Shown here: piece after piece, positions 3-43,587 of the stretch
How the letters are laid out: every line of letters starts with the position of its first letter
Position numbering within the stretch: position 1 is the first letter of the stretch
NCBI GenBank assembly: GCA_008636045.1
Contig: SNRW01000006.1
Span: forward strand, 1 to 50,188
Reading direction: 5' to 3'
Length of the DNA: 50,188 bases
DNA from: Streblomastix strix
Taxonomy: Eukaryota
Position numbers and translations under genes: made by a program
The notes under the pieces: model-generated
Told to the model about the DNA's origin: nothing
Databases searched by the model: none
What the model saw: only the letters and a program-made list of their open reading frames with translations

Positions 3-2186
3 ATTATTTCTGAGGTTCTTGGAGTCTCTACATAACAAGTTTATTCTGCAGCTCGTGCACATTGCTTTGGACTCAAATGGATCACAAAGGGCTAGGTTGG
101 ACATGCGTTGCTTCTTTCAGAATCTGGAGAATAAGAAATTTGTATAAATATTCGCAAAATGATGGCAATAAACAATGCTCCTGGTTCAGATAAGATAAGG
201 GAGATGATTGATGAATAAAGACACATCGAATAAAAAATGGCTATTGAACGAGCTTATGCCATGGGTATGTACTCACTTGGTGACAATTTTGACAAATTTA
301 TTGAGCCTGCTTCTGATTCATACGTCTATGGACTTCTTTCGACGAATAATTTGACATTGGCATAACCTTCTCGACTTACTACTGATAGAAGTGACGCAGG
401 TACTCAAAGTAACATATAGTACTACTTCAAGGAAACCTACACAGAAGATATAGCTAAAATTTATCGAGCGATAGCCATTGGTAATGAAGTTAATCTTGAT
501 TTTGATATTGAATGTCTAGTTTGCAAGGAAGTTGGTGCAAAACGTGCTCCTGCTACAACTAAAGAGAATGCTCCAGGGCACATATCTATAGTTATAACAA
601 TTATGGCTGATGGTCCTTCTCCACCTCCATTTTTCATACTTGGTGGTATTCTGAATGTGCCTAAATATCTCCAGGTATTGATAGAATAAACAGGAGTTGG
701 AATTGTAGCAAACGGATCAAGATGGATGACAAAGGACGTTATGAGAATTTTTGCACGATTTTTAAGAGATTGGGTTAGAAAAATGAGAAAATTGGGACAT
801 TTTAAGAAAAATGAATAAATTCTCTTTTTTATGGACGCATATACTTCAAGAGATGATTTAGAAGCAGTGATTACTCTTGCATGGTAACGAATTACATTAT
901 TAACTTTGCCAGCAGCAATTACTCACATTATTCAGCATGTTGATAGAGTTATATCTCGTGAATTCAGAAGATGTTTCAGAAAGTTACTTCGTAGGTTTGC
1001 TGAACATGCACGCAATGAAATAATTGGTGGCAAGCTTTCAACAGCTACTAAGAAGGAATTGATTGTTTAAGCAGCTTATGACGCCTGTTAACAGTCGTGT
1101 GTCGCAACAAATCGATGGACGGCGTTTTACTCAACAGGTCTATGGCCTAGATCATCTTAAAAAGCCTGCTAATCGAGATATGTAATCGACGATTCTGCGG
1201 CACCACGTCATCAAGAAGGCAGAAAAACATCAAGAAAAACTGCAAGTGCAAGAAATTTGACTAAAGAGCTATGCCCAGACAAAATCAAAAGAAAACGAAG
1301 TCCTTAAGAAGTTCAAAATGGAAATAAAATTAGAAGACTTAATTCAGAAGAATCACGTAGCTAAGAACGTGTTTCAAAATAATTACAAGAAGAAAAAAAT
1401 AATGATGTTGATTCAGCTGAATGGGAAGATCTTGGCAATGAAAGCAGCGAGGAATACTTTGAAACAAAATTAGGCAAATCTGCAAAGAATAGGCGCGATT
1501 ACGCTTATTTTCCAACTTAAGAAAAAATAATAACACGCTCCGGAGGCGAGCAAAGAAAATGTAACGATTTTGTTGAAGAAAATTCCATTCTGGGATAAAT
1601 CTCTGCTCAAGAATTGATAAAATCCAAGAAAACAGCAAAATAAAGTGGAAAAGCAATAACTGAATCTACAAAATCTGAAAAAGATGCAGTTTCAGAACAA
1701 AGCACGATTTTTAAGGACAATAACTAAGAAAAAGAGAAATCAGGCAAGTTTGAATCTTTCAAACAAAAAATCTCAATAACATTAACTTTAGAAGAGATGA
1801 AATTGGAGCTTTCTGGATTAGAAAGATCTATAATTAATAATAGAGAGAATGGGAATTGTTACTTCATGGCTGTGAGTCACTAACTGTATGGAACAAACAA
1901 GCTGCATCGATAAATAAGAGTTATGGCTGTAAAGGAGCTAATTGAAAATAAAGAGAAATATCAAGAAGAATTTGATGATAGCGAATCATTGAAAGAATAT
2001 GCAGACAAAATGATTTGTGATGGTGAATTTGCTGACGCCAGAATCAACCTACCAATGTGTTAATCTCAAAAAGTGAATCTAAGAATCTATCTTGGTGAAA
2101 ATCACTTTGAAACTTTCAACATAAATGCTCAGAAATGGGTCGAAATAGCATATGTGGACAGAATCCACTATGTAAGCGTTGTCTGA
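3..2186 (+). CDS. Pogo/Tigger-type DDE_1 transposase with C-terminal OTU-like cysteine protease domain (5'-truncated by the window)
   Basis: Uninterrupted frame-3 ORF with TAA/TAG=Gln, ending at TGA 2184-2186. DDE_1 motifs are HISIVITIMADGPSPPPFFIL, NGSRWMTKDV, ILFFMDAYTSR, LPAAITHIIQHVD and AFYSTGLWP. A charged linker follows, then OTU motifs NGNCYFMAVSHQLYG (Cys codon 1857-1859) and IAYVDRIHYVSV (His codon 2166-2168). Confidence 0.88.
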
Positions 2187-2599
2187 ATTCCTGCTCACAC
2201 TACTGTTCATACTCCTCATTACCATTTTATCTTTAGATTGTATCAATTGATACATCATTTTTTCACATATTTACCATTATTGAACTAGTTGCACTCGATA
2301 ATTAATTATTTTCAATAATTTTAATAAAAAGCTAAAAAAACTACCCGAATCAATTGCTAATTTGTTTATTACTTTTCAAAACGTATATATATTCATATAA
2401 ATATTTATTTAGAATTTTATTCTGGATAAATAAATAGAGTTATGGATAAAAGTTGCTACGATAAGTATTTTTTCAAACACTTGAATACAATTGAAAATAT
2501 ATTATATATGTTTTAATAATCTTATCTTATATGTTTATATAATCTTTGAAATAATAAATTGAAATAATGCTTGAAATAATTGTTTATCTAAACCAATCC

Positions 2600-4760
2600 T
2601 CCTCTTTTAAAATCCATTTATTGGAGTACAGGACCACTAAAATTGATCAGACCAAATGAGTGAAAATGCGACGAAACTCGAGAGAAACAAGTTCTTGGGA
2701 AAGGACAAAGAGAATACAGTAGAACTCGGTTAATTCGTACGCCGTTTAATTCGTACCCCCGCTTAATTCGTATGTTTTTTTTGATATATAATTAGAGAAA
2801 AAGATATTTTTTGGAAAAATATTTCAAAATTAAATAGGAAATACGAATTAAATTTAATTCAGATTCACATTTTCAGAAAAAGTCACCCTGCGAATTAACC
2901 GAATTCTACTGTATAGGACTTAAACTCAATTGGAAAGAGATTACTGGTAATTATTGGTCATAATGATCAGGAAGTTGAGGTAAAAACTCAGCGATTCACA
3001 GTTCTCGCAGAATATGCATGTGGCTGCAGAGACAGTATTATTTTTTGGTGATGTTCGTAAAACAACACGTTAGATACTTACTATTCAAGATGCCTCCAGA
3101 ATTATAAATGGCATAACGCAGCAGAGACTAGTAGTTTCATTAGTCATAAATCAATTTAAAGATATTTAAAACAAAATACTTTGCTATAAGAGGTATTAGG
3201 CGAGCAATCAAAATAGGCCAAAAAATCTGCAAAAAACAACAAATATCCTAGCTTAAACAAATAAATTACTGAATCTAAACTAATATTCAACTTATAAGTA
3301 TTTTTTTCGCCTAAAATAGTCCTTTTTGCGTAACAATAACTTTTCTTCCCTTAGCAACTAACTCTTTATAACTTGTATCATTAACTATTCTCTCAGATTT
3401 AATAGTAACCTCAGAGCCTTCTGCCTTTGTTAAATTCAATCAACTAGTAAAATGCATCTACATAATCGCAGTCTAATCTTTATCGATAATAACTAACTGC
3501 TCAATGAATCGAAGCAGATCTGGAGAAGACTCTGCTGAGGTTCTGTGAGAAAAAAAATGATGAAAAGGACAAACTGTTCGAATGAAGCTCATTTTTCATT
3601 TCAAATAGAGAAGAAAATCCCGTAGACTACAATATTCTCTTGGATTAAGAAGATTTTAGTCTCTCATTACATTTTTTATAATTTATTAAATAATTGCAAG
3701 ATGAAATAAAACCAGTATTGTAATATTAACTCAAGATATTAAGGTTTATAATCTAACATTTTTAATAAAACGTGCTGATTGTAGATCTAGAAAAATCTTG
3801 GATTATAGATGGATGAATATAATAAACAGACTCAGATCTTTAAAAGTAAGTAGTTAGAAAGAACTTAAACATCTGTTACTACAAAGTGACTTTACAGCTA
3901 CTGTAAATCTGAAAGATGCATTCCATCATATCAGCGTTTCTCATACTTTCCACCCTATTTTCGGGTTTTCTTTCCAAAATTGAAGCTATGATTACGATTG
4001 CCTCACATACTGTTGGCTTAATAGCTCCTTTATTCACAAAAAATCTTTTCAATCGTGATTAAAGATATTATCAGAAGATTAGAAGTTATAATCTACGATA
4101 ATTAAAGAGAAAATCAGTATAGATAATAATTGACTTCCATTAGTTCAAAAAAAAGTTGGAAATAATATTATATCTTATGAGCCTAAGTTGGAGATTTTCA
4201 CCAACTAAATATAGCCTCACGCATAGCTGAAAATTCAAATGTCTCGGATATGAATGGAATATATATACAATTAAAATAACAATTTTTCATCAATAGAAAA
4301 AATATTGAGGACTAAATAGAAATTATGGATCGAAATATCAAAATAGAAGCATAGAATAAAAGTTTGAGATTTTGCATCATTAATATGGGAGTTAAACTTC
4401 CTCAAGCTCCAATTTATTCAAAAGTCCCAATAAATTAATACCTTAAAAACATTTAAGAGTAAAACAATAACTAAGTAGTTCTGATGCTGCCAAGTTTAAC
4501 TAAATAGGGTAATTTTCCTTAAACCATATATTTTTTGAATATTCATTCCAATTCTTCAATAAATAAATGCCAACAATCTCCTCTTTTAAACGGAAAACTC
4601 CAAAGTGGAATAATGTCTGAAACATTGAAAACATACAAGAGTCTTTATTCAATTTGCAAAGATAAACTTCCAGTTACTAGGGACTCTGAGCATATGGTTA
4701 TTTACGAAACACATATTGAGAATTCATAATAGTAAGGCAAATGCTTAGAGTAAAATGGCT
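2600..4760 (+). pseudogene. Decayed retrotransposon, DIRS-like reverse transcriptase region
   Basis: Frameshifted RT motifs at about 3740-4030: KVYNLTFLIKRADCRSRKILDYRWMN and TVNLKDAFHHISVSHTFHPIFGFSFQ, matching the DIRS-type DLKDAFxHI motif. Many indels and TGA stops. Boundaries are approximate and no tyrosine recombinase was seen. Confidence 0.7.
2717..2911. mobile_element. 195-bp pogo/Tc1-mariner-type MITE
   Basis: 21-bp TIRs CAGTAGAACTCGGTTAATTCG (2717-2737) and CGAATTAACCGAATTCTACTG (2891-2911), one mismatch, flanked by TA on both sides. Three TTAATTCGTA copies lie at the left end. Confidence 0.93.
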
Positions 4761-5603
4761 CTTCGCAGTAACATGCTGAACGTATAGCAGCAGAACAGCG
4801 TTAACGTGCCCAATAACGATATAGAATGCAACGCTAAAACTTCCGTGTTTATGCAAATGATTTTCAATTACTCTTGATGCTTCATTTTAAAAATACTGCT
4901 ATAAATAATATGCAAGATCTACTTTAAATCATTGATACAATTGAACTTAATAACATAATGTAAGCTATTAAATTTTGATTAAATGTTTATTTTTGCATTC
5001 TTGAGTTTGTTAGTATTGTGATTAAAGTATAATTAATGAGTAATTAAAGTTTAGATTAACGTTGACTTATGAGTGATTAATGTAAGGATCGATGTTGATT
5101 GATGAGTGAATAATATATGATTAATGTGTGTTTAATGTTAGTATGCAAGAGATGTATCGAAAAGAGGTAAATTATCCATAAATATCGAGTGGTTCGAGTT
5201 AGAAAATGTATTACATTTCGAATATGCTTGAGCTATAGAGATTCACATTAAATTCTCTAAGTGCATCGAGTGCATTGAGTGTATTGAGTAAGTAAACGGC
5301 TATCTAATTTGGAGGACAGTTTTCCATTTGGACAGTTAATTCTACATTGGATATTCCCGTCTATTATCTCACAGCGCTAGCACATATATCAAATTTACAA
5401 TGTTATTGTCTGCTACTGTTCTGTCAACTTAATTGAGAATTCTCTGACCCAATGCACTAGTTTATTTTGATTCATTTCTCCACAACTCCTTAATTCGACA
5501 CTTTCATAATGAAAACATTTATCTCTGCATGGAACTCAACACCAATGATTACATGAACGTTTCATTTGTCATTGAATCATTCATTTACAAAAATAAATAT
5601 CAA

Positions 5604-6500: not shown

Positions 6501-6714
6501 AATAATATATGTTGACTGTACCACAGACTACTAATTCTGCCATGATATTTGAAACAATATTCTCTGCGCCAAATAACAATAGCAATTAAGCGAAATTCAT
6601 CAATGTAATATATAAAAGATATGGACAATTTTAAACAAATTTCAACTATATTGACGATATAAATGCAACCTATAACAAAATTAACACAATTCATCTTCAA
6701 AAATAGCAAAATTA

Positions 6715-9700
6715 TCACTCAATTATATAATGATCAACACTAATCCCATACACAAATGGAGTATAATATCCGTAAATTAAAACAACTATCTTATTATGAG
6801 TTCCTGTGAGCACTGATTTTTTCATATTAATCGTAGACATTACCTCCATTTTCATCTATAAATTATTAATTGTCACATTGATGTTACACCCATCATTTAA
6901 ACATTTAATATGGTCATTGGTTGTTATATCTGCCTTCACTTCACTTACACCTTTCATCCTATTCACTAATGAAACTATGTTATCATTTTATTCATTTTCT
7001 TTGTATAGATTATAACATTTAGGTGCAATACAGACAAAATTTTCACCCTATGATTCAATTGTAATACCCATTAATTTCTTCTCTTCAGCAACAGTACAAT
7101 CATTCCATGGAAGCCACTCTTTATACTGTTAGTCAAAGAACCCCTAATCTTTAATCACATACTTCAATCCATATTTATAGCATTCAATTTTTGATCCCGC
7201 AATAGCTAAATACATTTAATCAGTATCCATATTACAGAAGTGAACCCTATCCATATCAATACATTTATAGAGGAAGTTATATACAAAATTGAGATACCAG
7301 AATTTGTTATTGTCTAGTTTAAATACAGATTCTTGAAGAGGCATATTATACTTAAATTATCTAGGTGATTCATTAACCATATACTATGCTTCTTCAATAA
7401 CTTCATCATCAGAATTACATATATGGGTATTTCCAATCATAAACAACCTACAACTTTTTTTAATTTTAAAAAATTTAAATTAAATTTATAAACAAAAATT
7501 GGAGTTGCAAACATTTAGATTTGCATCCTCTGAAAAATTAAGCTAAAAATATATTCATGTTTTTTCAACAGCAGAAAACTAATCATATTATTAAATTTTT
7601 ATTACAAACATTTTTTTAAATTTTTTCAGGTAGATTGAAAGACAAAAACTACATTTTCAGCGGTACACATTCGTGAAAACCGTTTTTTATTAATTTTTCG
7701 ATTTTTCCGCCCATTTCATGCTTAATTACTATTTTTTTTTTAAAATTATTTATTTAAAATTATTTTTTAAAAATTGGACCAATAAAAATTATAATTACAG
7801 CTATGCTTATTTGCGAAATTTCAAATTAAATTTTTTTGTAAAAAAAATATACGTGTTCGATTTTTGAGCTAAATTAAATTGAGTAATTATAAAATAAATA
7901 CATTAATGTTTATTATATTAAATTACAATAATTGATGAATTTGAAATGGTGATTTGAATAAAAAAACGAAAAAACAAAAATTTTCTGTTTTTATGAACGC
8001 ATGCCGCTAGAAACGTCGTAATTGTCCATCAATGTATCTGAAAAAATTTTAAAATATATTTTTAATAAAAAATAAATAATAATATTACTTCTATAATGAC
8101 AAAAAAATAAAATCACAATTTTTGCTCGTTTTTATAGCGGAGGCAAATCGAAAAATTTGCAACTCCAGCTATTGTTCAAAAAATTATTTAAATATTTTTA
8201 AATAAAAAAAATAAAAAGTTATCCTACTGAATGGACACTTCCATATCATCACTAAATTTCCTTGTTGCTTTATGACACTAATTTATTTATTTGATTGAAG
8301 CATATCGAGCATTATTTAATGATATTTTATCAAATTTAAGATTATTTTATCCTTCACCTCCGAAAGCACTATTAAGTATTTACCTGTAATATAGAGATTT
8401 TGTGTCATTAGGTTGATTAATTGCTTCTTTTCTCCTACTCATCTTTGTACATGTAAATGATTCAAATCCTAAATGTTTGTCAAATAGAGCAATTGAATCA
8501 ATTTCATCAATAATAAAGTTACAATAGTCAATTAATAACCATAAAATACAGCTAGTGAAGCTCATGAATTGATTGTGTGTTGTTTACAATGATGTTAGTT
8601 TTGTAGTAGGTTTATCAACAGTTAATCCCTATGACAGCATCATACTGTACATAAATTCTCCTATCTATTCAAATGAATTATTATGCGTTAATTTTCTCCA
8701 TATTGGTGCTAAATTTATGTGTGAGTTAATATGTTTTCTCATCAATGTGACTTATAATTTTGACACATAATAGTTATCCTTTATCTGTATATCTATCAGC
8801 ACTCATAATTATATCTCTTGTTTTCTATTTTGAATTATTAGAGGTACATTTGAAATAATTAGTCAATCCACCTGCTTGATTTATTCGATGATTTGTATAA
8901 GGGTTATTTTTGTTGAATATACCACTAAATACACTTGGATAGAGAGAGTTTAAATCTAAATCAAGTACACGAGTAATTGTATGTAGGGTGTCATAAGATG
9001 TTATTGTTTTAGTTACATGATTATATCTAAATTTATTAATGTGTCTAATTCCTTTTAAATTAAATTAATGATACACATTAGATAAGCCACCTTATATACG
9101 TTTTTTTAGCATATTATATACAGATTCATTATTAATTGTCATATGTAGATGTTCATGGATAGAATATTTCATTAATTGATTTTTAATTTATTAATATCAT
9201 TATCTTTATCAGCCTTAACGGTACTACATATTTAACAAGCTAGTTAACAGTTCTATTTTGTGTGACCAATTGAATTATTAATTCCGTCTAATATATGTTT
9301 GATTTCTTTAACGAATTTGTAACGACATAGATGAGATGTTTCACTAGTTACTTTATCTCTAATACAATCAATATCATCTTCTGTAACATAATTAGTTGTA
9401 TCTTTCTTAGCATACTCATCTTGATTGATATATCTTTTGACTTTGTTATTCCACCAATATTAAGTAATTTCGAATTATTCAAACCTATTAACTATATTAT
9501 AACTTGCATTGATACCGCCCTTATCATAACAGTACTTGTATTTAATTTAACTAACAATTTGAGCTAGTGATATACAACCTAACATATCAACTCTCTCTTT
9601 CTACGTAATTTGAATTAGATGATTGATAGAGTTGATCATAAAAGTAATATCCTTGATATTGTAATGCTTTAGATAATCCTATCTATATGTGAAATTGATT

Positions 9701-12685
9701 GAATCATTAATAAACTATTAATAATCTTCATCAATAATATTCATATTATTAAGTTTGTCATAGAAATCTTCCTTAACAAACGGTGTTGCTTATCCATGTA
9801 CTAATTAATAGTTATCATTTTTGAATGATATATGTGGAAATAAACTTTTTGTTAATTTTATACCTTTAGTACCAAATTTCTCAACGAATTACTTTAATGT
9901 GTTGTTTGATGGGAGAAATGATAATATTTCAATAAACCTCAAGTCAAAATCGTAATCGTAATGTGATACAATTGTCTATTTAGATTATGTTGTTGATTCC
10001 ATATATTAAATTCTAGTCTTATTTTTAATTAAGTATATGAGTAATAGATTCATATCAAACTTCTTAGAATTGTATCCTATAACTGATACTTGTGGCTTAT
10101 ATGGTTCATAACGTTTATCTTCAATTGCAACATCAGGTATATTTGATTGATTGACTTCATTAACTTTAATAGCAACTTCAAACAATTAACTTATCCATTA
10201 TTCAATAAAATCAGAGCCATTTCGTAAATCAAAATATAATGTAGTAATAATACCATTAACTGTTGCTGCTGATGCTACAGACAGAGGCTCTAATTAAGCT
10301 ATCACATTGTCTACATCAATTATGTTCTCTACTGTTTCAAAAATCAGATGTAATGTAATTAAGTGCAGGAGTTAATAATTCTTATTAACCTATTGCAATT
10401 AATTTCTATTGTAGTATATTCTTTGATATATCTGAATAATACGGTTTTGGTAAATGATCTAATTTAACTTATTTAGTTGTTTATGGACCCTATTAATACT
10501 TCAAGTGTCTAGCTAACTCTCTCTTATAATTCTGATTCGTTGTATTAAATATCATCTAACAGTTGAGGGGACACAGCTTTCCATTAATTACTTTATCAAT
10601 ATCGCTAATGTACATTGCATGGATTTCATCAACAAATGATAATGGAACTAATAGAACATTAACAGTTAGAAAGTCCTTAGCACTTATGCCGCCAGCTTTG
10701 CCGGTATCAATAATGTGCTCTTCGAATTTACTGAATTATTCAGGTTGATTTTATCTTGTTTTCAACATCTTATCATCGCATATGTATGCTATTGTATTCA
10801 TCTTGAATATTTATTGAAATCTTTCAAGATCTCTAACATAATTGAACTCTTTATATGATTCGAGTAGCTATTTATTAGCTTTATTTAATCTACTACTTGG
10901 ATTGATATCATTGAATTAGAGAAATAATTTAATAGTATCACTAACTCTAGTTCTTGTTTAATCAATCTCATGGTGCAATGCAAATGAAACAACTGAAAAC
11001 CAACATATATTATATTCACAATCAATGCCCATAGTGGTACCTTCATTATTGAAGCGCAAACATATTTTATCCATTTTAGTCCCTAATGGCAGTCTATAAA
11101 CAACAATCAAAAACGAAAATAGGGCTTCCTTTAATGTTGCTGAATCTTCATGAGTAATGTCTTAATAATCCGATAGTAAATCAATAGCTTTCTATTTGAA
11201 ATAGTCATTAGTCTATTTATCACTAACTACAATAATAGGTAAAGTCTTATAACTATTATCAGCATTTGATCTGGTGTGTGAATAATGACATTCATCTAAT
11301 ATTTGTTAATGCATATAAACTTATTACTTTTTCTAGTATATAGATTTAAAACTAATATATTCTTTATAGGGTTTAGCTTTCTCTAATTCATATACTTAGT
11401 CGATTTTATTTTTCAATTGCTATAAGTCAAAGAAATGATTATAATAGTATTACATATATGATTCTTTATTTTCGATACCTTTTGACAATAATAATGATGC
11501 AGGCAACCCATCTATACTAACTTCATTCTTTTCTTAATATCTCTTGCGTGCCTGAGCTAGTATTGCATAATAATCTGATAAGTTCAATAGTGTGAAGATA
11601 ACGAATGCCTTCTAATTAAGTTCTCTATTTTTATTTAATTATTCTGTCTTTGTAATACTTTGTTCACTAAAATGATCCTTATGAAATCCGAAATATTCAT
11701 CATTAAGTTTTTTCACTCTTTAATTAAATTCTTTAGCACCTAATTTTACTTCTAGGTATTTGAGAAGTTTAAATGGTTTTTCACCCTATCGTTAATATCT
11801 TGAATTGATGAGTATCTGTTATAACTGTTCATAGAGATTATGTCTCTTCCATTTGCTCTTAATCACATTAGCTGCATCAATTGATTATTGGAATTGTTAT
11901 TATGCTAAGTCTTTTCGATAATTCTTTTTGACTAATACGGCTGCTTTATTCTTTTTCTCCAATTTTTCCTACAATTCTTGAATCTCTTATTGATGAAACT
12001 ATTCTTACTGATCTAATTCTTATTAATGTTTCAATTATTATTCAGCTAATAACTGTTAATAATTTGAATTAATTTACTTTGACTCTTGAATTTATTCACC
12101 CAAATCAAATTCTTCTCATAATAAATCAATTATTGTTTGTAATGTCTCTTATTGCTAATATATCTTAATAGTGATTTATTGTTAAGCTTATAGTAACTAT
12201 TATATACGCTATCTTCGATCACATTCTTCAAATTTTTATTTGTAATCAGTTCTGTACTTATCAGGATTGAATATACCATCATCTGAATTGTCAGACCAGT
12301 TCAATTCGTTTATGATAGCATTTATGCCGCCATCAGAGTTTGCATCATCAATATTTGTAGTTAATTATGGTTATTGTTAACCATTATTCAACTATTAATA
12401 CTATTTATCAACTACTTCCGTTATTGATAATAATTTTGGTTATTGTTATTGATCAATTTATTCTAATTATTAATACTGTTATTTGTTTCTTTCAGCTACA
12501 ATTTGATTTACAAATACAACAATTTCAGTTGTAATTGAAATTTAACCTGGATAATGTAAACGAAGTAGTTCATTAGTTTACATGTTTCATAAATCAACTG
12601 CTGTGTGATTAGGTAAATATGCAACTTATAACTAATTTAGTAAATTTTAAATCTATTATTTACTCGTTATGTATTTTTCTGCCAT
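6715..12685 (-). pseudogene. Protein-primed family B DNA polymerase (Polinton/Maverick-like) with long N-terminal extension, decayed
   Basis: Exonuclease motifs xFETVE (~10280) and IGYNSKKFDMN (~10070). Polymerase motif A VLDLDLNSLYPS (~8935-8970), motif B YRQILNSAFGG (~8360-8390), motif C HFCNMDTD (~7220-7245) and late CIAPKCY. ATG at 12685, TGA at 6715-6717. It carries frameshifts, internal TGAs and an insertion at 7452-8220. Confidence 0.9.
7452..8220. mobile_element. 769-bp non-coding long-TIR (foldback/Mutator-like) element inserted in the PolB gene
   Basis: Imperfect inverted arms of about 240 bp, e.g. GGAGTTGCAAA at 7501 versus TTTGCAACTCC at 8156. Ends are AACTTTTT...AAAAAGTT, flanked by AACCTAC and ATCCTAC (possible 7-bp TSD). 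It lies between PolB motifs B and C. Confidence 0.85.
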
Positions 12686-21728: not shown

Positions 21729-22587
21729 ATGGCTTATCCAGGCAGGATATTTCTCAACATTATTAGAGCGAAAGATATTGTGTCATCAGATCTGATAGGG
21801 AAGGTGGATCCTTTCATTAAGATCATCTTCGGGAAAGTGGAAAAGAAGACCAAGGTAAAATAATTTCAATTTTATTATTTGTCTTTAAATTTTTATTCTT
21901 TTAGAAAGTGAAGAATAATGCTAACCCAGAATTTAATGAAGAATTTCTATTCGATTACGCTCCACAGGCAAACATGCATGTTATAAGTCTTGAAGTCTGG
22001 GATTATGACATGATTGGAAGCAATGAGAAGCTTGGATTTGTGCAGATTCCAGTATGTTTACAACATTTTAGTGTATTATAAACATTTTTTTTAGTTTGAG
22101 GAATTTATGAACAATAAACACACAAAGAAATACCCATTTTCTACTAAGAAAGGAAAATTCCAGGGAGAAGTAGAAGTATAGCTCTACTATGAAGCACCAA
22201 CTGCCCCTGCTGGAGCTACTGGAATTGCAGGATCAGCATAAACAACTGCATTCTCAGCATAACCAGGATCTGCGTATCCACCACCTCCAGGACCTTCTAG
22301 TGGATACATACCTCCTCCAGCACCTGGATATGCACCTCCTCCAGCATATGGAGCAGCTCCTGGATACGCACCACCTGCACCTGGATACGCACCACCTGCC
22401 CCAGGATATGCACCTCCACCTGGATATGCACCACCTGCACCTGGATATGGAGCACCTCCTCCTGGGTATATATGAATAATTTTATTTAAATTTTAACTCA
22501 AAATTTTTTAATTTATTTGATTTCTTTAATTAATTTTATATATTTATTATTTAAATACTAAGATATTATCCACCACCGTAATATTGA
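21729..22587 (+). CDS. C2-domain protein with Pro/Gly/Tyr/Ala-rich tail, paralog 1
   Basis: MAYPGRIFLNIIRAKDIVSSDLIGKVDPFIKI..NPEFNEEF..LEVWDYDMIGSNEKLG, with acidic Ca-ligand positions present and PAPGYA repeats. Introns at 21855-21904, 22052-22094 and 22466-22562. Ends GYYPPPQY-TGA. Confidence 0.92.
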
Positions 22588-23280: not shown

Positions 23281-24197
23281 ATGGCTTATCCAGGCAGGAT
23301 ATTCCTCAACGTCATAAGAGCCACTAATGTTATATCGGCAGATCTGATAGGGAAGGTGGATCCTTTCATTAAGATCATCTTCGGGAAGGTGGAAAAGAAG
23401 ACCAAGGTAAAATAATTTCAATTTTATTATTTGTCTTTAAATTTTTATTCTTTTAGACAGTAAAAAACAACCAAAATCCCATATTCAACGAACGTTTGCC
23501 ACAATATTATGATATTTCCTGTAAATATTAAAATTATTATTTTTCAGAGTTTGTTTTCGACTACGCTCCACAATCAAAAATGCATGTTATAATGCTAGAA
23601 GTCTGGGACTATGATATGATTGGAAGCAATGAGAAGCTTGGATTTGTGCAGATTCCAGTTTGCTTTCATTATTTATTTATATATTGTTAATATACTTCTT
23701 CAGTTTGAGGAATTTCTGAACAACAAGCACACAAAGAAATACCCATTATCAACAATCAAAGGCAAATTTGCAGGAGAGATTGAAGTAGATGTTTTCTATG
23801 AAGCACCAACAGCCCCTGCTGGAGCAGGATAAGCGTTAAGTGCTCCAGGATATGCCCCTCAACCTTCTGCTTCATACAGCGCTATGCCTGATGCTCCTCC
23901 TTAAGGATATGCACCTCCTCCAGCTTATGGAGCACCCCCAGGTTATGGTGCCCCATAAGGATATGCGCCTCCTCCAGCATATGGAGCACCACCTGCTTAT
24001 GGAGCTGCACCTGGATATGCACCACCTGCACCTGGATATGCACCACCTGCACCTGGATATGGAGCACCTCCTCCTGGGTATATATGAATATTTTTTTAAA
24101 TTTTGTCTCAAAATTTTTTAATTTATTTGGTTTCTTTAATTAATTTTATTTATTTATTATTTAAATACTAAGATATTATCCACCACCGTAATATTGA
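23281..24197 (+). CDS. C2-domain protein with Pro/Gly/Tyr/Ala-rich tail, paralog 2 (tandem duplicate)
   Basis: Same architecture as paralog 1. Introns at 23407-23456, 23494-23547 (extra), 23658-23703 and 24078-24172. Confidence 0.92.
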
Positions 24198-31000: not shown

Positions 31001-34000
31001 AATAAGAGTAATTTAGAACGAAGAGAAGAAGAAAGAAGAAGACCAAGTTAAAAGGAAAGATGAAATAATTAAGAAGGATAAAAAAGGAGATAAAAAAGAT
31101 AAATAATACATTGAATAATCAGATCAAGGAAATTAAAATCACGAATTGTTATCTTCTGCATCATCCTCATCATTATAGTCATATTAACAATTATTATAAT
31201 AATACAACTCTAATGATATACTGAATTTTATTATTTTATAGTAATAAGGAAGAAGTGTGGATTAATTAATATATCATCAATGCTTATAAATAATATGCAA
31301 TTATTATTCTTAAATATATGTTTTAAATGAAGATAATTTAAAAGAAGAATTGTTAAGAATAAAAATGTAAATATAAAATGGGAATTCACCTACATCTTTT
31401 TCTTTAATAGCAATTAATATCTTTGATGGATATGAAAGATAAAATAATGATGCTCTAAATAAGTAATAATAATAATACATGTAATATGAAATATAATAAA
31501 ATTAGGAACAATAATAATCCCCATCTAAATAACTTTCATTTTCTCCATAAAGATCTAATCATTCAATATAATAATAATAATAAATGCAACCATAACAACA
31601 AATATAAATATAACCACTTGCTTCTCTTGAAATTGATATTAAATAATAATTGTAAGTCTAGAATTAAAACTCGAATAAATAATTAGAATTATTAAATAAA
31701 TTAAAAGTATAAAAAGACAAAAGAATTGGGGAAATGATTGATTAAATTTAAATTATTGACGTTGTTATAAGAAGTTTGGATAGATTGCATAGAAGTATTA
31801 GTATATGGGTTGCATATTTGTATTAGAACTATATTTATGATGAATAAATAGGCGAAAGGGAGAAATTGAAGAAGACTGAATAAAATTAATCATCTAAATA
31901 ATTTTCTAATATTTCTCATTATCTTGAATCACACCTTCCTTTTCTTCATTCATTATCTAAATAGCATTCTTCTATTTAATAATATTATAATAACACAGTA
32001 TAATAAATAAATAAATAAATTTATAATAAGATAAATTATTCATAATAACATTTATAATCTAATTTAAATTATCATCAATTTGGTTGTTTTGAATATTAAA
32101 CTCATTTTAACATAATTAATGTTCTTATTCAATATATTGTAAGTTATTTTTGCTAAGCAAAAGGATATTAATATAATGTTTATAATAATAGATCAAAATT
32201 TATTGATAATAATTTGAACTGTACTAAAAATGAGATTTAATAACAAATAATTAGTAAGAGATAATTTGGAATATTTTATAGAAAATAAATAAAAATTAAT
32301 GAAATTATGAATGAAAATGAAATAATTTCTGGAAATAAAGATGAAGAATAGGAATTATTAAATATATAAGATATTAATAATAAATAGAATAATTATTAGA
32401 TTATGCGAACAACTTCCCCTTTGAAATAAAACTCTTCACCATCATCAATATCATATAGTTAATAATAATAATAATAATAATCTTAATAATTATAATCAAA
32501 TATATTAAATTCTAGTCATTCAGTTTCTTTTTCTAAAATTCCATTATTATTTTCTCATTCATTTCAATTTCCTTCATAATCTTCTTCCTTGTATTATTCA
32601 TTCCCTTCTCCTAATATGTTTATTTAAGATAATTACTTGTTAGTTAANNNNNNNNNNNNNNNNNNNNNNNNNNNNNNNNNNNNNNNNNNNNNNNNNNNNN
32701 NNNNNNNNNNNNNNNNNNNNNNNNNNNNNNNNNNNNNNNNNNNNNNNCAGTTTCTTTTTCTAAAATTCCATTATTATTTTCTCATTCATTTCAATTTCCT
32801 TCATAATCTTCTTCCTTGTATTATTCATTCCCTTCTCCTAATATGTTTATTTAAGATAATTACTTGTTAGTTAATATTTGGAACGTGTGTGTAAGAGGCT
32901 CTTTTACAAAATAAGAATAGATTTAAGGGTTAGAAACATTTGAAGCTATTGTTGATTAATTTTCTTATAATTAATCGTTTATTTTACATTAATAATAAAA
33001 AACTTAAGAAATGGAATTAAAGGAGAATAAAAATTAATCAACTTAGCCTTCTCACATGCATAAACATAAACATGAATAATAATAATATTCACAGCAATAA
33101 TCATAAACCATTAAAAAATAAATGTATAATGGTTCATTTAATGAAGATATTCTATAATAATTTAGAGAAATTTGCTAATCATTTATGAAATTTCCACCTT
33201 TCATTTAATTTACTGATTATTTTATAAAATCAACAAGTTCTTTATTATCAGAAACATTATAAAATGATATTAATTATTAAGAATTTCCTCAATCATCATT
33301 TTAATTTTCATCATAATAATAATAGTTTGTCGCATCAATTCCACATAATCTAGAATTTATCTTAAGAATATTCTCAATAATACATATTTAATAAATTTAA
33401 GAGCATAATTATTCTTTATTTATATCTTTATTTACGATAATTAACAAAAACAGAATAATATAAAATGAAAATGAAAATGGAATAGATTGTTTTAATAATG
33501 AAAGTGATGATGGAGATGAATATGAATATGAAAAAGAAGAAAGTGAAAATAGAAGAATAAATAAACAAAGAAGTGATATATTAAACAGACAATGGAAGTG
33601 GAATATTAATGGAGATGAAATAGTGAATGAAGAAGAGAATTTGAAATAATTATAATAAAGTAAATTAATTAATAATCTTCAAACGTTTGATGAAATAAAA
33701 AAGAAAGATAATCATTTAATAAATGGAACATTAATTAATTAAGATGAACAAAAATAATTATTTAATTAATAATAAGAAATATCAAATATTTTAATTGGTT
33801 ATAATAATATTTGGGAAGCTTGCATAAATTGGTTTATTGATGTTGAAGGAATAAAATAATAAATATTTAAATTTACTGAAAATTAGATTAAATAAATAAA
33901 AACATTATATAAATAATATTAAAATGAAATAAATGAAAAAAAGAATATGGAAAAAGAGAGCAAAAAAGATAAAAAAGAAGAAAACAAGAAAGAATAATTA

Positions 34001-37000
34001 GGTGATAAAGAAGATAAGAAAAGGAATAAAGATAAAAATGAAGAGTAATAATCCTAGTAATAAATCTAATCAATATTTGGTTAATTCGGAAATGAATATA
34101 TTGGTGTAATTTTAGCTGTATCTGAATAATTAAGCCATTAATAATAATAGCTTCAATTAAATCAAAATAATTATAATATGTAAAATTAACATAAGCTTTC
34201 ATTTCACTCATTATAATCAAATAACGATGCATTTTATACAATAATTAAATTACTATAAATGAATGTAGATAATAATTATGAAAAAGATGATGAGATTAAA
34301 TAAAACAATAATATTGGATAGAGAGATTTAAGTGAGAATGAACAAGAAGAAGGAAATGAATATAATTAATAATAAATTCATACTAAATTATAATATACTT
34401 TATCTTCATAATAATATTCTTTTTCTTAGTAATCAATTTAATAGTAAATTATAAACAAAAGAAAGAAAAATATAATCAATGATTATTATAATAGAATTTA
34501 ACTATTAATAATACTAGCAAATGAAAGCAATAAATAAATAATGTAATACAATATAATCCCTGGTTAATTTGAACAATAATAGACCTTATTATATTGTATA
34601 AAAGTTGGAATTGGATATTTATTGACTTTTTAATAACCTTAATATCAATAATTATTATAAATTAGTAATAATTAAACACAAGAAAAAGAATTATCCACTT
34701 TCCTTTCTTAAAATCTTTCATATCAATTATTATAATAATAATCTTCTTAATCTTCCTAACCCAAATCAAAAACATTTATTGACAAATTATAACAAATATC
34801 AATATTATAATAATAATAACAAACTGAAAATCAACATTTATCAAAAAGAAAAACAAAATCTTAAATTTTTTCTGATTAATAATAATAATAATAAAATGCT
34901 CAATTATAATAAATAAATATGTAATATATAATATCAAGATTTAATTTATCGAATTAATAAAATAAAATAATGAACTCATTATTAATATTGAGTGATTTAT
35001 TAGGGTTATGTAGACGATATCATAATCCTTATGAAATTGTTAATATTCCCTTATTTTCATAATAATAAGTATAACTTAAATCAAGTTTTAATCCTCCTTT
35101 TATATCTTCAATCTCGTTGCTTCCTTAGATAAAATTCTTAACATCATTATAAATTAAAGTAAATGAAGGAGAGGGGAATATTAAAATTAACATTTCTTAT
35201 TCTGATTGCGTTTAATGTTTAAGAATAAGAATTGCTAAATATTTTAATTGTTTGTATGAAGATGTTAGAATAATATACAAAGATTAAGATATTACATATG
35301 AATATGCTGCTAATAGAAATAGAAGAAAGATCATTAATTAATAGTCATTAAACAAAGAAGGAAAAGATAATAATAATTAAGAATATACAAAAGGTTAAGG
35401 GCTCCCATTGATACTAAGATTTGGGTTAAATAATTTATAGTATTTATCTTCATTAGTTCCTCATTAATATTCATTTCACGTATTAAGACCAAATGAAACA
35501 TTCGAATAATATATTGAATAAGAATAAAGTGAAAATTTGAGGAATAAATAATTATTGAATTAATAAAGTTAAATAAGCAAATAATAGCATCATTTAATTT
35601 CACCAATTAAACAAGAATAGTAATCAATTTCTCCTTCCCATCAAGTACAGCAAAATAATAATAATAATTGAACTGAATCTCCATTATTCATCTCACATGT
35701 TTCGTAATTTGGATAAGATCCAATTATTTCTCCTTTTGAAATACGAAATATTGATCAAATAAAATAAATGCCTAAACGATCTCTTTCAACACATTCACAA
35801 CATTCTAATTCTTCTTGTTAATTACTTCAGCAGTAATAATTAAGTCAAAAACAAACAAATTAATAATAATCTTACTATATTCAATAGAAAATAGATCTGT
35901 CATAGCCAATAGATCCACTTATATATCCTCATTTATTTTATAAGTAGAATTTATATTAATATGAAGATGATTATGATTATATTATTTAAAATAACACTGA
36001 TAATGAAAACGGAGAAAGAGAATATAAAGCTGAGAATATATTTGAGAAAATGGTAAAAATTGAGGCATTTTAATAGACAATAAAAATAAAAACATAATCA
36101 CAGTAATATTAATAATAATAGCAATATTTTATTCCTTCATTCACAGCTTCATCTTCTTCTATTATATCAATTCTATATTCACTTTCCTAATCTCTTCCTC
36201 GTCTTATTAATATTATTAGGTATATATTCTCATTTTTTCATATTTAATAAATATTATTCTCGTTAATTCGCCATTCACAATAATAAATAGATTGGAATTA
36301 AATATTTTTTTCTGAATTAAAAGAAATTTAATATTAATTTTAATAATGTGGAATGCGGATTGGGTTTATATTTAACAATAATGAATATGAAAATGAATTT
36401 AATTCTAATTTGGAAAGAAAAGATAAAGACAATATAGATAATAAACAATTAAATTAAGAAGGAGGAGAAGATTTTGAATGGAAAAAAACGTTAATAAATA
36501 TAAATAAAATATAATAACAACACAAAATAATATTATAAAGAAATTTAGAAGAAATAGAAAGAATGATTAAAATTACAGATTAACAATATTATTAAGATGT
36601 AATCCAATAATTCAAAGTAAAAAAAGATGTAAGAGAACGAATAAATCAATTATATTCGATGGATTAAATTAATTAAATAATAGAAAAAGATATGAACATA
36701 AAGAAAGTAATTAAAGATATTTAATATAATAAAGATCAAATATAGATTTATGATAATGATTCTGATAATAAGGAAAGGAATGCGAGAAAAGAAGGAAATG
36801 ATAAAAAGAAGGAATTAGAGTAAAATATTGTTTTAAATATTTAAAAACAAAATTATAAATCTTCATCTTCATAATCTTTCCTTTCATCTGATTAACTATC
36901 ATAGTCATCATAATTATAGAATTGGAGATTTAGATTTATTATTAATGGAGGTTTATCTTCTTTAATTTAACTATTTATATATTCTCCACTATCTAATGAA

Positions 37001-40000
37001 TAATTATCAAACGTAAGTGGCATTATAAATATGCAAAATATTAATATGAATAAACTGTAGAAAGAAAATGAATTTAAATTCCATCAATATTAATTTGAAA
37101 ACGATTAATTCATGAATAAATAAAGAGATAATGAAAAAAAGAAATAATAATATATTAACATCTAAAATGAAGTAACAATATTTGCTAATGTTAAAGCTCT
37201 TGTTCAAACTTCATCTTCATCATCATTATTATAAGTCTAAACGGAAGAAGAATAAAAAGTCTTAAATTAATAAATAAAGAAAAATAAAGTTTTTAAAGTG
37301 GAAAAAATGAAATTAGATTTTATTTCACTTATTTTTAATATTATTTTAAAATTAATTATGTAACCAAGAAGATATTCTTCAATTTTATCTAAAACATTAT
37401 ATTAGTAATAATCATAACATTAATTTCTTACTACTTAATCTTCTCCAATTCCCTTCTCCTAATTACTTCCTTCTTTATATTAATCGATATTTGCTTATTC
37501 TTTATCTTTAACACCTTTTCAATCAATTTTAATAATTAAATAGAAAAATGACAAGGGAAAAGCGAATATTTAAGAAAAAGATATATAAAATACCATATAA
37601 TCTTAATCATTCTTATTTTTTTCTAAATTAATATAGCTTGTATTTGCTTTTTCAGAAGAAATATTAATTGAATAACCTTTATTTTTATAGAAATATTAAT
37701 AAATGAAAAAGATATAGAATTTATATAATATCAAAATGTAATATGATGAGATTGAAGAAGATAATTAAACAGATTAATTTGAGAATAAAGAAGAAAATGA
37801 AAATAAAACAAGAAAAGAGTGGAAAGAAGAATTTCCTCACATCGTAATCAGATATTAATATTAATAATCAAATGAAATTAAAATTGAAGAAAATAAGGAA
37901 ACAAAAACATAATAAGATTAATTATAATAATCCATCCATCCTTCATTTATATCACCATTTTATATTAATTCATTATAATATTATTAATATTAATAGTAAA
38001 GGTAATAATATTCATTAGGAGCACTATTAGGAATGGAAGAATAAGAATTTTTTAACCTTTGTAATGAAAGATAAATAGATATAAATGAAAGAAATTCAAT
38101 TAAAGAGTTAGAAAAGAATAATTAAATTAAGAAAGAAGATTAATTATAATTCAAATCAATTGGACAAAATCAATCAGAAATTAATTACACAAAATAAAAT
38201 CAAGAAAATAAAGATCTTCGATTTGCATAAATTGTTTAGAAATATACTTATGAATAATTAGAAACAAAATATTTTTTGTCTCCTATTGTATCTGATTTTA
38301 TTAACCCTGATGTTTTTATTAACAATAATGATATAAAACAAGAAAATTAAAATGAGAATGAACAGAAGAAAGAAAGGAAGAAAGATAAAAATATGAAAGA
38401 TTAATAAAAAAATATAAATATTGAAATGTATAAAATAGTAAGAGATATGATATATAATCCATAATTAGTGTTTCACTCGTAACAATCTCAAAATAATACT
38501 AAAAATAATACATATAGCAATTAAATAAAAGAAGTAAAATAGAATAATAATATAGATATATTCAATGACATTCCATAAATATTATTATAATCATTTATTT
38601 CATAATTATCGTAACAAGCATCAACTGACAATATATATTCAATATTTGCACTTCTTTCTTTATTAATTAAATTTGATAATAACATTTTATATTTAGTTAC
38701 TCAACCACAATTTGATATATATTTGGTTGCTTTAATAATTGTTGTTAGTAGAATGAAATAGAATAATGAAAAAAATAATATTGTTAATAAACGAAATTAG
38801 GTAACAAAATTTGAATAGTATATATAAGAAAACAAAAGTAGAAATTAAGGAGAAATGTTAATTGAATTATTTTTTGATGAAATAAATAGATAATTAGCTT
38901 AGCATTCTTCATAATAGTTTTCTTAGTCATAATAATCATAATTATTCACGCTTCCTTCACCCTCAATGTTCTGTGGAGTTTTATTAAATTAATTATCATT
39001 ATTCTTGCCAACATTGTCTCTTATTCCATAATAATAAATGAGTTCTATATTTATTATTATTTATAATACATTAAAAAGATGTGGAGCAATTTCAATGGAT
39101 TCATATAATTATATTATTAATAAACATATGCCTAATGTTATTGTTTCTTAATATGCTCCAATTATTTATTCATCTACGTATAATCCTTGCATCGATGTAA
39201 ATAGTTAATAATAATTATAGTAGAAAAGATACAGAGATTTAGAAGGAGATTATAATGAATAATAGCACAATTAATAATTAAATAATATTGGTGATAATAT
39301 TAATTGTTAATAGAATAATGATTATTGGGGAAGTAACAATTCAGCTCGACTTATAATAATATTATCAATGTTAATAAGAACATCACATCTTATTTATCCA
39401 CAATTAATAAATAAAAAGTAAATAGAAACAAATAAAACTGATAGTATAAATGATATTAATTAATAAATACTTTTAAAGAATAACCCATCATAAATATCTA
39501 TATCTGATTAATTACAATAATGTCCTTTACAGCCATTTATTTAAAAACCATAATAGCGACTTCTTTTATCCCCTTTTATTTCATATTAAACATTAATTGA
39601 ATGGTTACATATAATGTTATAAGATTTAGAATATAAAAGTATTAATTCAAACGATAACAATTCTTAATAGATTGAACTATAAATAAAAGAATGGATAGGA
39701 CAAGATACAGGATTGGGATTAATTAGACATATATTTAGACATTTCTTAGTTGGATTATCTCCTTTATTGCAAAATTAATTAAAAAATAGACTAATAATCG
39801 AATAATAGTAGTTATTAATATAATAAGGAGAATAGATATAAGGAAAGAGAGAGAAGAAAGAAGACAAAGAAAAGAACATTGGATAAGATTAATAGAAACA
39901 ACAATAAATCATATTTACAACTTTGGATATTAATATATTAAAATAGTAATATTAACAATAACAATTATTATAATAATAAAAGTAATTTTCTTAATCTTAA

Positions 40001-43000: not shown

Positions 43001-43550
43001 TTGGATAAACAATAAGATTATTAATAATAATAAACAGATGAAGATGAAATTCCATTAACAATTAGAAGTGGAAAGAAATTAGATTTTAATGAAATATATA
43101 ATAATAATAATTTACTAAATGAATAATAAATAGAATCATATTCAACGCCATAAGCCAAATCTTCTTAATTGTCTTCATAAACAAATTTCCCAATAAATTC
43201 TCCATTTCATTACACATATACTTTTCATTCTCCTCCATCTTAGTCTTTGCCCTAAACTTAATAATTAATTTCTGATTTTAACAACAGTGATTTTGATAAT
43301 TTCAATAATTTTTTTTAAGATAATCTTGAAAGGACTAACTATTATAAAGAGTAGAATATATTTAATGAAAATAATAACCAACAATCTTTAAAAGATGAAT
43401 AACAGTATTTTTCATCCGATGCAATTGGAGATATAGATGGATATATTGATAAGAAGCAGAGAGAGAAATAATAGAAAGCAAAAGACAATAAAATTGAAAA
43501 AGAGAATGAAGAAAATTTATTACAACTATAAACTTATTCTCATCATTATT

Positions 43551-43587
<37 letters not shown>

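What the first reader, a model, noticed from the sequence alone, without database searches (positions are those of the whole stretch)
3..2186. Pogo-family transposase fused in frame to an OTU deubiquitinase-like domain
Seen: one continuous ORF joins the DDE_1 motifs through a charged linker to an OTU-like domain with the catalytic Cys and His intact. Known: OTU and Ulp1 proteases are captured by viruses and some other transposon groups, whereas pogo transposases usually end in PHD fingers or nothing. Inference: the element may counter ubiquitin-mediated degradation or silencing.
Basis: partly seen in the sequence, partly recalled or inferred. Interest (0 to 1): 0.78.

Follow-up and report, generated by a model that had tools for sequence, protein, structure and literature searches.

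The report
Pogo transposase with OTU protease tail
A repeated jumping gene, likely from a termite-gut protist, encodes its cutting enzyme and a ubiquitin-protease-like (OTU) domain in one reading frame, which likely helped it undo ubiquitin tagging by the host; this copy lacks a catalytic residue and is likely unable to jump on its own.

Summary
Confirmed, with corrections. Under code 6, window 3-2186 is one open frame of 727 codons: pogo DDE_1 core (Pfam E 7e-10, DD35D), a 195-aa charged linker, then an OTU domain (26.2 bits, above Pfam's cut-off; OTUD5 E 9e-4). The fusion belongs to a multi-copy family. 23 of 26 relatives are named Streblomastix strix, and 5 of 6 other OTU-bearing contigs also carry transposase parts. 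The OTU lies inside the element, whose right end is at 2461 followed by TA. DD35D, TA and the terminal motif fit the Fot-like pogo group. Corrections: this copy lacks two codons including catalytic Asp1. The OTU keeps Cys619 and His722, but has Val at the third triad position in 4 of 4 copies, so activity is unproven. Transposase-OTU fusions are published for Ginger1, and OTU capture for Helitrons. I found none in print for pogo. This scan noted one pogo-like OTU fusion and 35 transposase-OTU findings in other genomes (unchecked). Best reading: a tethered deubiquitinase that protects the transposase (inferred). No RNA data, confident model or relative outside this family was obtained. New variant of a known kind.

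The parts
3..2186 (+). Single open frame (code 6), 727 aa, 5'-truncated by the contig start; full-length family protein about 781 aa
   Evidence: relatives P0018, P0025, P0026, P0027 add 52 N-terminal residues
3..422 (+). N-terminal region, presumed DNA-binding helix-turn-helix part (inferred from position; not detected by Pfam)
   Evidence: Only HTH_23 at E 0.057 in relative P0010; conserved across copies
480..491 (+). Site of catalytic Asp1; this copy lacks two codons here, including the Asp
   Evidence: 8 of 8 other proteins covering the site have the two residues, 6 of 8 with Asp; 6-nt insertion relative to the window after 483 in one contig of run X1
675..1028 (+). DDE_1 catalytic core match; Asp2 at aa 278 (nt 834), Asp3 at aa 314 (nt 942), 35 residues between them (DD35D)
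1188..1772 (+). Charged, low-hydrophobicity linker of 195 aa with 27 Lys and basic clusters (disorder and nuclear targeting are inferred)
1836..2183 (+). OTU-family cysteine protease domain: Cys619 (nt 1857), His722 (nt 2166); Asn at Cys-3 and Val at His+2
2187..2392 (+). 3' non-coding part of the element
   Evidence: Two diverged contigs (81 and 48 differences) run from the OTU coding part to 2463 (records 5 and 6)
2393..2461 (.). Right end of the element, probable terminal inverted repeat of about 65-70 nt with an 8-nt sub-terminal direct repeat at 2423 and 2443; reads TCGTA from the end inwards; the left partner is not in the window
   Evidence: a 71-nt identical contig at 2393-2463, depth rise at about 2396, loose ends before 2393 and 2398, no listed difference in 2428-2463
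2462..2463 (.). TA dinucleotide at the element's right border, probable target-site duplication
   Evidence: Two contigs leave the window after 2463 into other flanks; depth falls from 246-362 to 11-26

Best explanation
This is one copy of a multi-copy pogo-type cut-and-paste DNA transposon, likely of the Fot-like group and likely from the oxymonad Streblomastix, whose single reading frame joins the transposase through a long charged linker to an OTU-family protease domain that likely removed ubiquitin from the transposase or its complex on DNA; this copy lacks the first catalytic Asp and is likely unable to transpose on its own. Shown: the open frame, both domain matches, the fusion in other copies, the OTU inside the element's right end, DD35D, and the TA border. 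Inferred steps: (1) an ancestor captured the catalytic core of an OTUD-type enzyme at the 3' end of its transposase gene; (2) active masters made one protein of about 781 aa, which bound the terminal repeats, cut out the element and inserted it at TA; (3) the linker tethered the OTU so that it acted in cis at high local concentration, trimming ubiquitin from the Lys-rich transposase or from proteins at the cut site and so delaying removal of the complex; (4) a Cys-His dyad would be enough for this, because tethering offsets low catalytic efficiency; (5) most copies then decayed. My odds: about 0.9 for the identity of the element, about 0.55 for the cis-acting deubiquitinase role.
For: Domain matches. 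Family: 26 relatives, 23 named S. strix on 16 contigs. P0002 and P0003 each match both DDE_1 and OTU. Of 6 other contigs with an OTU part, 5 carry a transposase part in the same protein or in the adjacently numbered gene, and the sixth begins with linker DNA read in a shifted frame. Element end. Cys kept in 4 of 4 copies and His in 3 of 4; the aromatic residue of the variable loop aligns with OTUD3 (F-A) and the basic residue after the Cys helix aligns with OTUD1 and OTUD5. Differences between the window and other copies are enriched for silent changes (14 silent, 17 replacement; pN/pS 0.34, p 0.003), which points to past purifying selection on the frame as a whole. Published context: loss of the acidic third residue gives complete, partial or no loss of activity in bacterial OTUs (PMC7396840, passages); TYMV PRO lacks it and is listed among viral OTU deubiquitinases (PMC3968130, passages); Helitron-borne VTD deubiquitinases cleave K48 and K63 chains and are proposed to protect transposition proteins (PMC9741609, passages).
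Against: No activity, substrate or expression is shown. His+2 is Val in 4 of 4 copies where OTUs have D/N/E; Cys-3 is Asn in 4 of 4 where OTUD1, OTUD3 and OTUD5 have Asp; the Gly that follows the aromatic residue in OTUD1 and OTUD3 is Asp in 5 of 5. The OTU match is modest (22.9-26.2 bits; P0013 gave no Pfam hit). The selection signal cannot be assigned to the OTU: only 5 of the 31 counted differences lie in aa 591-727 (2 silent, 3 replacement), and the 31 come from the 40 best-supported of 559 differences. Among copies the OTU is about as diverged as the linker (P0001/P0002 16% against 19%; P0002/P0003 22% against 22%; P0001/P0003 7% against 10%), as expected from neutral decay. Four contigs with the DDE core and the start of the linker returned no OTU protein. 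The left end was not seen, and the Fot-like placement has no tree behind it.
Confidence: 0.55

Rival explanations
1. The OTU domain is a weak or dead enzyme that serves only as a ubiquitin-binding module, docking the transposase on ubiquitinated chromatin or repair proteins.
For: Val at His+2 (4 of 4), Asn at Cys-3 (4 of 4) and Asp after the aromatic loop residue (5 of 5) are family-wide, so they predate the decay of single copies. BurkOTU is a published OTU that binds a ubiquitin substrate without cleaving it in one assay (PMC7396840, passages).
Against: Cys is kept in 4 of 4 copies and His in 3 of 4. Dyad OTU-like proteases exist (PMC3968130, PMC10318531, passages).
Confidence: 0.17
2. The OTU is a neutral passenger: a captured host gene fragment that rode along in frame and gave the element no benefit.
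For: No OTU-specific selection could be shown. For Helitrons, captured domains are described as not essential for transposition (PMC11417382, passages).
Against: The capture is confined to the catalytic core, the frame ends directly after the His strand in 4 of 4 copies, and no closer parent protein was found among 4124 candidates of 294-2000 aa (weak evidence). Different transposon groups have captured ubiquitin-type proteases repeatedly (PMC2836005, PMC9741609, passages).
Confidence: 0.13
3. The OTU is a processing or ubiquitin-like-modifier protease: it cuts the polyprotein in the linker (for example after Gly-Gly at aa 514-515) to free the transposase, or removes a modifier other than ubiquitin.
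For: The dyad-type active site parallels TYMV PRO, a broad-specificity processing protease (PMC3968130, passages). The linker Gly-Gly is kept in 3 of 4 copies.
Against: The motif lacks the Leu-Arg of the ubiquitin tail (tail sequence recalled, not from a call). One Gly-Gly in 195 residues is unremarkable, and P0011 has lost it. The other two Gly-Gly pairs lie inside the transposase domain.
Confidence: 0.1
4. This copy is a domesticated host gene in which a DNA-binding, catalytically dead transposase targets an OTU to genomic sites.
For: It is the only copy seen with 727 uninterrupted codons, its differences from other copies are enriched for silent changes, and Asp1 is lost in frame.
Against: The right end and TA are intact. 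It has radical private changes at aa 280, 294-295 and 312. Near-identical fragments exist (93-100%). The silent excess is equally explained by descent from a separate active subfamily.
Confidence: 0.04
5. The fusion is an artefact of reading TAA/TAG as Gln, or of a chance insertion next to a host OTU gene.
For: Code 6 has a single stop codon, so long open frames are common in this window.
Against: TAA/CAA swaps occur at Gln codons in both the linker and the OTU. The same DDE-linker-OTU order occurs in other copies, and the OTU lies upstream of the element's end.
Confidence: 0.01

Closest known systems
Fot-like pogo transposons of metamonads (Trva-Fot-like of Trichomonas vaginalis, Trfo-Fot-like of Tritrichomonas foetus; Gao et al. 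2020, PMC7386202, section 8 and supplement 3 part 66 read)
   Same: DDE_1 core, DD35D, TA target duplication (4 of the 5 excavate rows seen), DNA-binding domain not detected by Pfam (5 of 5 rows), terminal motif of the form xxGTA (CCGTA and GAGTA there, TCGTA here).
   Different: No protease domain is reported; 'protease' and 'OTU' have 0 hits in the main text or the supplements searched. Their terminal repeats are 24-42 nt, against about 65-70 inferred here. The T. vaginalis transposase is 718 aa and I could not examine its C-terminus, so it may hold an unreported extra domain.
Ginger1 DNA transposons (Bao, Kapitonov and Jurka 2010, PMC2836005, passages read)
   Same: A cut-and-paste DDE transposase with a C-terminal OTU domain in the same protein; a role of ubiquitin removal in transposition was proposed there.
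   Different: Ginger1 has a Gypsy-integrase-type core with zinc finger and GPY/F motif, introns, and animal hosts. Here the core is pogo/DDE_1, the frame is uninterrupted and the host is likely a protist. Independent capture is inferred, not tested by a tree.
Helitron OTU and VTD deubiquitinase domains (PMC11417382 and PMC9741609, passages read)
   Same: Transposon-borne deubiquitinase-type domains. VTDs are shown to be active; transposon OTUs were stated to be untested (2022).
   Different: Rolling-circle RepHel elements with the OTU upstream of the transposase; VTD is a different family.
Human OTUD5, OTUD1 and OTUD3 catalytic domains (PDB 3PFY, 4BOP, 4BOU)
   Same: Cys-loop, helical part and His strand align over aa 612-727.
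   Different: Host enzymes; OTUD5 has Asn at His+2 and all three have Asp at Cys-3. Here these are Val and Asn. E-values are only 9e-4 to 0.03.

Membership tests
pogo superfamily (IS630-Tc1-mariner group) | DDE_1 (PF03184) catalytic domain | tested here: met
   39.2 bits against a cut-off of 22; 41.6 bits for the domain alone
pogo superfamily (IS630-Tc1-mariner group) | DDD triad with DD29-59D spacing | tested here: met
   DD35D. Met for the family: Asp1 in 6 of 8 other copies, Asp2 in 5 of 8 copies, Asp3 in 8 of 8. This copy lacks Asp1; no single copy seen shows all three.
pogo superfamily (IS630-Tc1-mariner group) | TA (or TAA/TAAA) target-site duplication | tested here: inconclusive
   TA at the right border, where two contigs leave into other flanks; the left border is outside the window, so the duplication itself was not seen
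pogo superfamily (IS630-Tc1-mariner group) | Terminal inverted repeats | tested here: inconclusive
   A conserved block of about 70 nt ends at 2461, with contigs leaving on both sides; the left copy was not recovered
pogo superfamily (IS630-Tc1-mariner group) | N-terminal HTH DNA-binding domain (CENP-B_N, HTH_psq, BrkDBD, HTH_Tnp_Tc5) | tested here: inconclusive
   No such Pfam hit; only HTH_23 at E 0.057 in P0010. It is also undetected in the published metamonad Fot-like elements.
Fot-like group of pogo | Placement in the Fot-like clade on a transposase tree | not tested
   No outside homologs were obtained; the HMMER search of representatives never ran
Fot-like group of pogo | DD35D with TA, TAA or TAAA borders | tested here: met
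   Passer elements also have DD35D and TA, so this does not single out Fot-like.
OTU deubiquitinases (PF02338) | Profile match above the curated cut-off | tested here: met
   26.2 bits against 23.3 for the domain alone, 23.8 in P0002; 22.9 in whole P0001, 21.4 in P0003 and no hit for P0013
OTU deubiquitinases (PF02338) | [quoted passage not shown] | tested here: met
   Cys619 and His722 align with OTUD5; Cys in 4 of 4 copies, His in 3 of 4
OTU deubiquitinases (PF02338) | Third triad residue D/N/E at His+2 (A20-type enzymes place it before the Cys instead; some members lack it) | tested here: not met
   Val at His+2 in 4 of 4 copies; pattern from PMC7396840. An A20-type position could not be checked without a model. 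The domain is therefore called OTU-family by sequence, not a proven deubiquitinase.
OTU deubiquitinases (PF02338) | OTU fold | tested here: inconclusive
   Models of pLDDT 46 and 33; Foldseek gave no match at E <= 0.001 on the first
OTU deubiquitinases (PF02338) | Cleaves ubiquitin isopeptide bonds | not testable with these tools
   Needs a bench assay
Ginger1 transposons | Gypsy-integrase-type transposase with H2C2 zinc finger and GPY/F motif | tested here: not met
   The core matches DDE_1 and no integrase family at E <= 1

The most novel reading that the evidence does not exclude
A pogo-type transposon lineage independently evolved a tethered, Cys-His dyad deubiquitinase that its transposase needs in order to escape ubiquitin-dependent removal. 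That would reveal a ubiquitin-based defence against DNA transposons in a metamonad, and give a compact one-gene system for the first direct test of what transposon OTU domains do.
Probability: 0.3. Interest if true: 0.72.

Novelty: new variant of a known kind. Interest (0 to 1): 0.46.

Why it matters
Unrelated DNA transposons have repeatedly picked up ubiquitin- or SUMO-type proteases. As of 2022 no transposon OTU domain had been tested for activity (PMC9741609, passages). This adds the pogo branch and probably an oxymonad host to that list, which strengthens the case that ubiquitination is a general brake on transposases. The domain is about 130 aa and easy to express, and its family-wide loss of the third catalytic residue makes the assay informative either way. 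The general theme is known, and this copy is broken, so a specialist would find it a useful extension more than a surprise.

Tried and rejected
No whole genome is held for this window, so copies could not be counted on DNA. The HMMER search of 1.84 billion representatives never ran, so the key question of whether the fusion occurs outside this family is open. Word-indexed protein searches found only this family: 5 of 7991 candidates, 22 of 2593 and 3 of 4124; their sensitivity to distant relatives is low. JGI metagenomes: 410 peptide-pattern matches, none confirmed; the patterns held Gln, which this code often writes as TAA. A 19-nt end pattern gave 9 loci, and 0 of 9 encode a relative; I treat them as chance. 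IMG/VR: 600 pattern matches for the OTU, none confirmed. No RNA holder was listed, which says nothing about expression. Both AlphaFold2 models were too poor to use (pLDDT 46 and 33), and the fold search on the first was uninformative. The Pfam APT hit at aa 35-109 (16.5 bits against a cut-off of 25) is rejected as noise. PHROGs gave nothing useful. The MITE at 2717-2911 was considered as this element's end and rejected: its termini differ and the element ends at 2461. Read depth from run X1 is not used as a copy number, and X1 may be the source of the window, so it is not independent support. Literature: ten searches; those aimed at the fusion listed no paper on pogo or Tc1/mariner with OTU. 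Repbase and most subscription journals are not in the library, supplement cells were cut at about 400 letters, and bioRxiv supplements are closed. No complex prediction was run.

Full report
OBSERVATION. Under NCBI table 6, window 3-2186 reads as 727 residues to a TGA, with 24 TAA/TAG as Gln. The other five frames hold 11-39 TGA each, and 727 TGA-free codons have a chance of about 3e-7 at this composition. The code is supported within the gene: Gln547 and Gln687 are TAA here and CAA in other copies. Pfam finds DDE_1 at aa 225-342 (39.2 bits, cut-off 22) and OTU at aa 616-680 (22.9 bits, cut-off 23.3); the C-terminal 137 aa alone score 26.2 bits. All four PDB hits at E <= 1 are OTU domains (OTUD5 twice, OTUD1, OTUD3), the best over aa 612-727 at E 9e-4. 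In the ESM Atlas 29 of 30 hits for aa 590-727 are OTU clusters; for the whole protein, the listed rows with a Pfam family are all DDE_1 clusters at 0.82-0.83, a lead only. Between the domains lie 195 charged residues with 27 Lys.

HOST AND FAMILY. Protein searches returned 26 relatives at 65-100% identity. TAA/TAG = Gln is published for this oxymonad (PMC1501061, passages). The host is therefore likely S. strix or a close relative (inference). Relatives add 52 N-terminal residues, so the window begins inside the gene; P0026 overlaps the first 128 nt with 100% protein identity, and P0006 begins at the same residue as the window, which suggests an assembly break at a repeat (inference).

THE FUSION IS A FAMILY TRAIT INSIDE THE ELEMENT. 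P0002 and P0003 each match both DDE_1 and OTU. Six contigs other than the window gave an OTU part. Five also carry a transposase part, in the same protein (8656 and 1936 nt) or in the adjacently numbered gene (5205, 5699 and 1260 nt). The sixth (P0013) starts with linker DNA read in a shifted frame, 82% identical over 28 aa. Against this, four contigs with the DDE core and the start of the linker (9646, 5164, 20919, 34846 nt) returned no OTU protein. One of those proteins ends where the window has Trp and one runs on in a shifted frame, so unannotated OTU DNA is possible but unseen. In run X1, summed depth is 86-371 over 1-2461 and 28-29 over 2462-2675. Two diverged contigs run from the OTU coding part to 2463, two contigs leave after 2463 into other flanks, and a 71-nt identical contig covers 2393-2463. 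The element therefore ends at 2461, followed by TA. A terminal inverted repeat of about 65-70 nt is inferred from contigs that leave before 2393 and 2398; the left end was not seen. X1 may be the window's own source, and depth is not a copy number.

CLASSIFICATION. Asp2 (aa 278) and Asp3 (aa 314) give DD35D. DD35D marks Passer and Fot/Fot-like pogo elements (PMC7386202, section 8). The five excavate Fot-like rows in that paper's supplement have DD35D and no detected DNA-binding domain; four have TA borders, and two have xxGTA terminal motifs. This element reads TCGTA from its end and has no Pfam-detectable DNA-binding domain. Fot-like is the closest fit, but no tree was built.

STATE OF THIS COPY. 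All 8 other proteins that cover the Asp1 site have two residues that the window lacks, 6 of 8 with Asp; run X1 shows the same 6-nt difference after 483. The window also has Tyr for His at aa 280 and His for Pro at aa 312. It is likely unable to transpose on its own. Most annotated relatives are fragments, gapped or frameshifted, so the family looks largely decayed. Of the 40 best-supported of 559 differences listed, 35 fall in the frame. I left out 4 that form one cluster at 882-885. The other 31 are 14 silent and 17 replacement, against 22% silent sites (pN/pS 0.34, p 0.003). This suggests past purifying selection on the lineage leading to this copy. It cannot be assigned to the OTU, where only 5 of the 31 fall, and amino-acid divergence among copies is similar in all regions.

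STATE OF THE OTU. Cys619 is kept in 4 of 4 copies and His722 in 3 of 4, and the frame ends directly after the His strand in 4 of 4. The aromatic loop residue aligns with Phe of OTUD3 and the basic residue after the Cys helix with Arg of OTUD1 and OTUD5. Three family-wide departures remain: Val at His+2 (4 of 4), Asn at Cys-3 (4 of 4) and Asp after the aromatic residue (5 of 5). OTUs normally have D/N/E at His+2, and its mutation gives complete, partial or no loss of activity (PMC7396840, passages). TYMV PRO lacks the third residue (PMC3968130, passages), and dyads are described among OTU-like enzymes (PMC10318531, passages). In EAV PLP2 it is the backbone amide of the Cys-3 residue that forms the oxyanion hole, so Asn need not be fatal. 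Activity is plausible but open. Structure prediction did not help (pLDDT 46 and 33).

MECHANISM. I commit to a cis-acting deubiquitinase (0.55). The transposase would bind the ends, excise the element and insert it at TA, as established for pogo. The tethered OTU would trim ubiquitin from the transposase or from proteins at the cut site and so prolong the complex. The enzymatic and protective steps are inferred by analogy with Helitron VTD enzymes, which cleave K48 and K63 chains and are proposed to protect transposition proteins (PMC9741609, passages). Rivals: ubiquitin-binding pseudo-enzyme (0.17), neutral passenger (0.13), self-processing or other-modifier protease (0.10; the lead came from note e1-7625591, and the linker Gly-Gly is kept in 3 of 4 copies), domesticated gene (0.04) and artefact (0.01).

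NOVELTY. A DDE transposase with a C-terminal OTU is published for Ginger1 (PMC2836005, passages). OTU capture is published for Helitrons (PMC11417382, passages), and OTU was used as an accessory-domain filter in a fungal transposon survey without naming a superfamily in the passage seen (PMC5751038). Two pogo surveys have no hit for 'protease' in the main text and none for 'OTU' or 'Streblomastix' in the supplements searched (PMC7386202 and PMC7325037). A Merlin survey mentions only Merlin remnants in S. strix (PMC8101967, passages). Five searches aimed at the fusion listed no paper on pogo or Tc1/mariner with OTU. Repbase and subscription journals were not searchable. This scan holds no look-alike sequence, but 35 notes in at least 20 genomes contain both 'transposase' and 'OTU', one of them pogo-like (e1-7693551); these are unchecked. 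No relative outside this family was found, but the sensitive profile search never ran. Verdict: real, a new variant of a known kind, interest 0.46.

Noticed in passing
window 2717-2911: A 195-nt MITE with 21-nt terminal inverted repeats (1 mismatch) that begin CAGT, flanked by TA on both sides, with internal sub-repeats. It is multi-copy in run X1, with loose ends at 2715 and 2913. Its ends differ from those of the OTU element, so it likely belongs to another Tc1/mariner or pogo family.
   Followed up: partly
window about 2580-5000: Probable decayed retroelement around the MITE: a reverse-transcriptase-like motif near 3900 (motif recalled; no Pfam hit), and a 3527-nt contig of run X1 that joins 2642 to 3065.
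   Followed up: partly
window about 6700-12100, minus strand: Broken frames with motifs that resemble a protein-primed family B DNA polymerase of Polinton-like elements (resemblance recalled; no supporting Pfam hit, and only weak PHROGs hits, one an HNH endonuclease at E 0.01). Endogenous viral elements are reported in S. strix (PMC10120064, passages).
   Followed up: partly
window about 32500-33000: The same 41-residue peptide appears before and after a run of N in two overlapping long frames, which suggests a duplicated scaffold join (translations).
   Followed up: no
window 35672-48646, plus strand: A 4324-codon frame open under code 6, rich in Gln, Asn and Ser, with no Pfam hit.
   Followed up: no
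window about 22100-22500 (minus) and 23540-23670 (plus): A Gly-Ala-Tyr-Pro repeat stretch, and a partial C2 domain match (E 4e-6) nearby.
   Followed up: no
window 3-2186 (ESM Atlas): The top feature hit (0.93) is an unnamed 54-member cluster with a 1227-aa representative and no common Pfam family. It may be a longer related transposase family; no sequence was available.
   Followed up: no
PMC7386202 supplement 3: The Trichomonas vaginalis Fot-like transposase is listed at 718 aa, against 441-542 aa for the four Tritrichomonas rows; its long C-terminus should be checked for an OTU or other domain.
   Followed up: no
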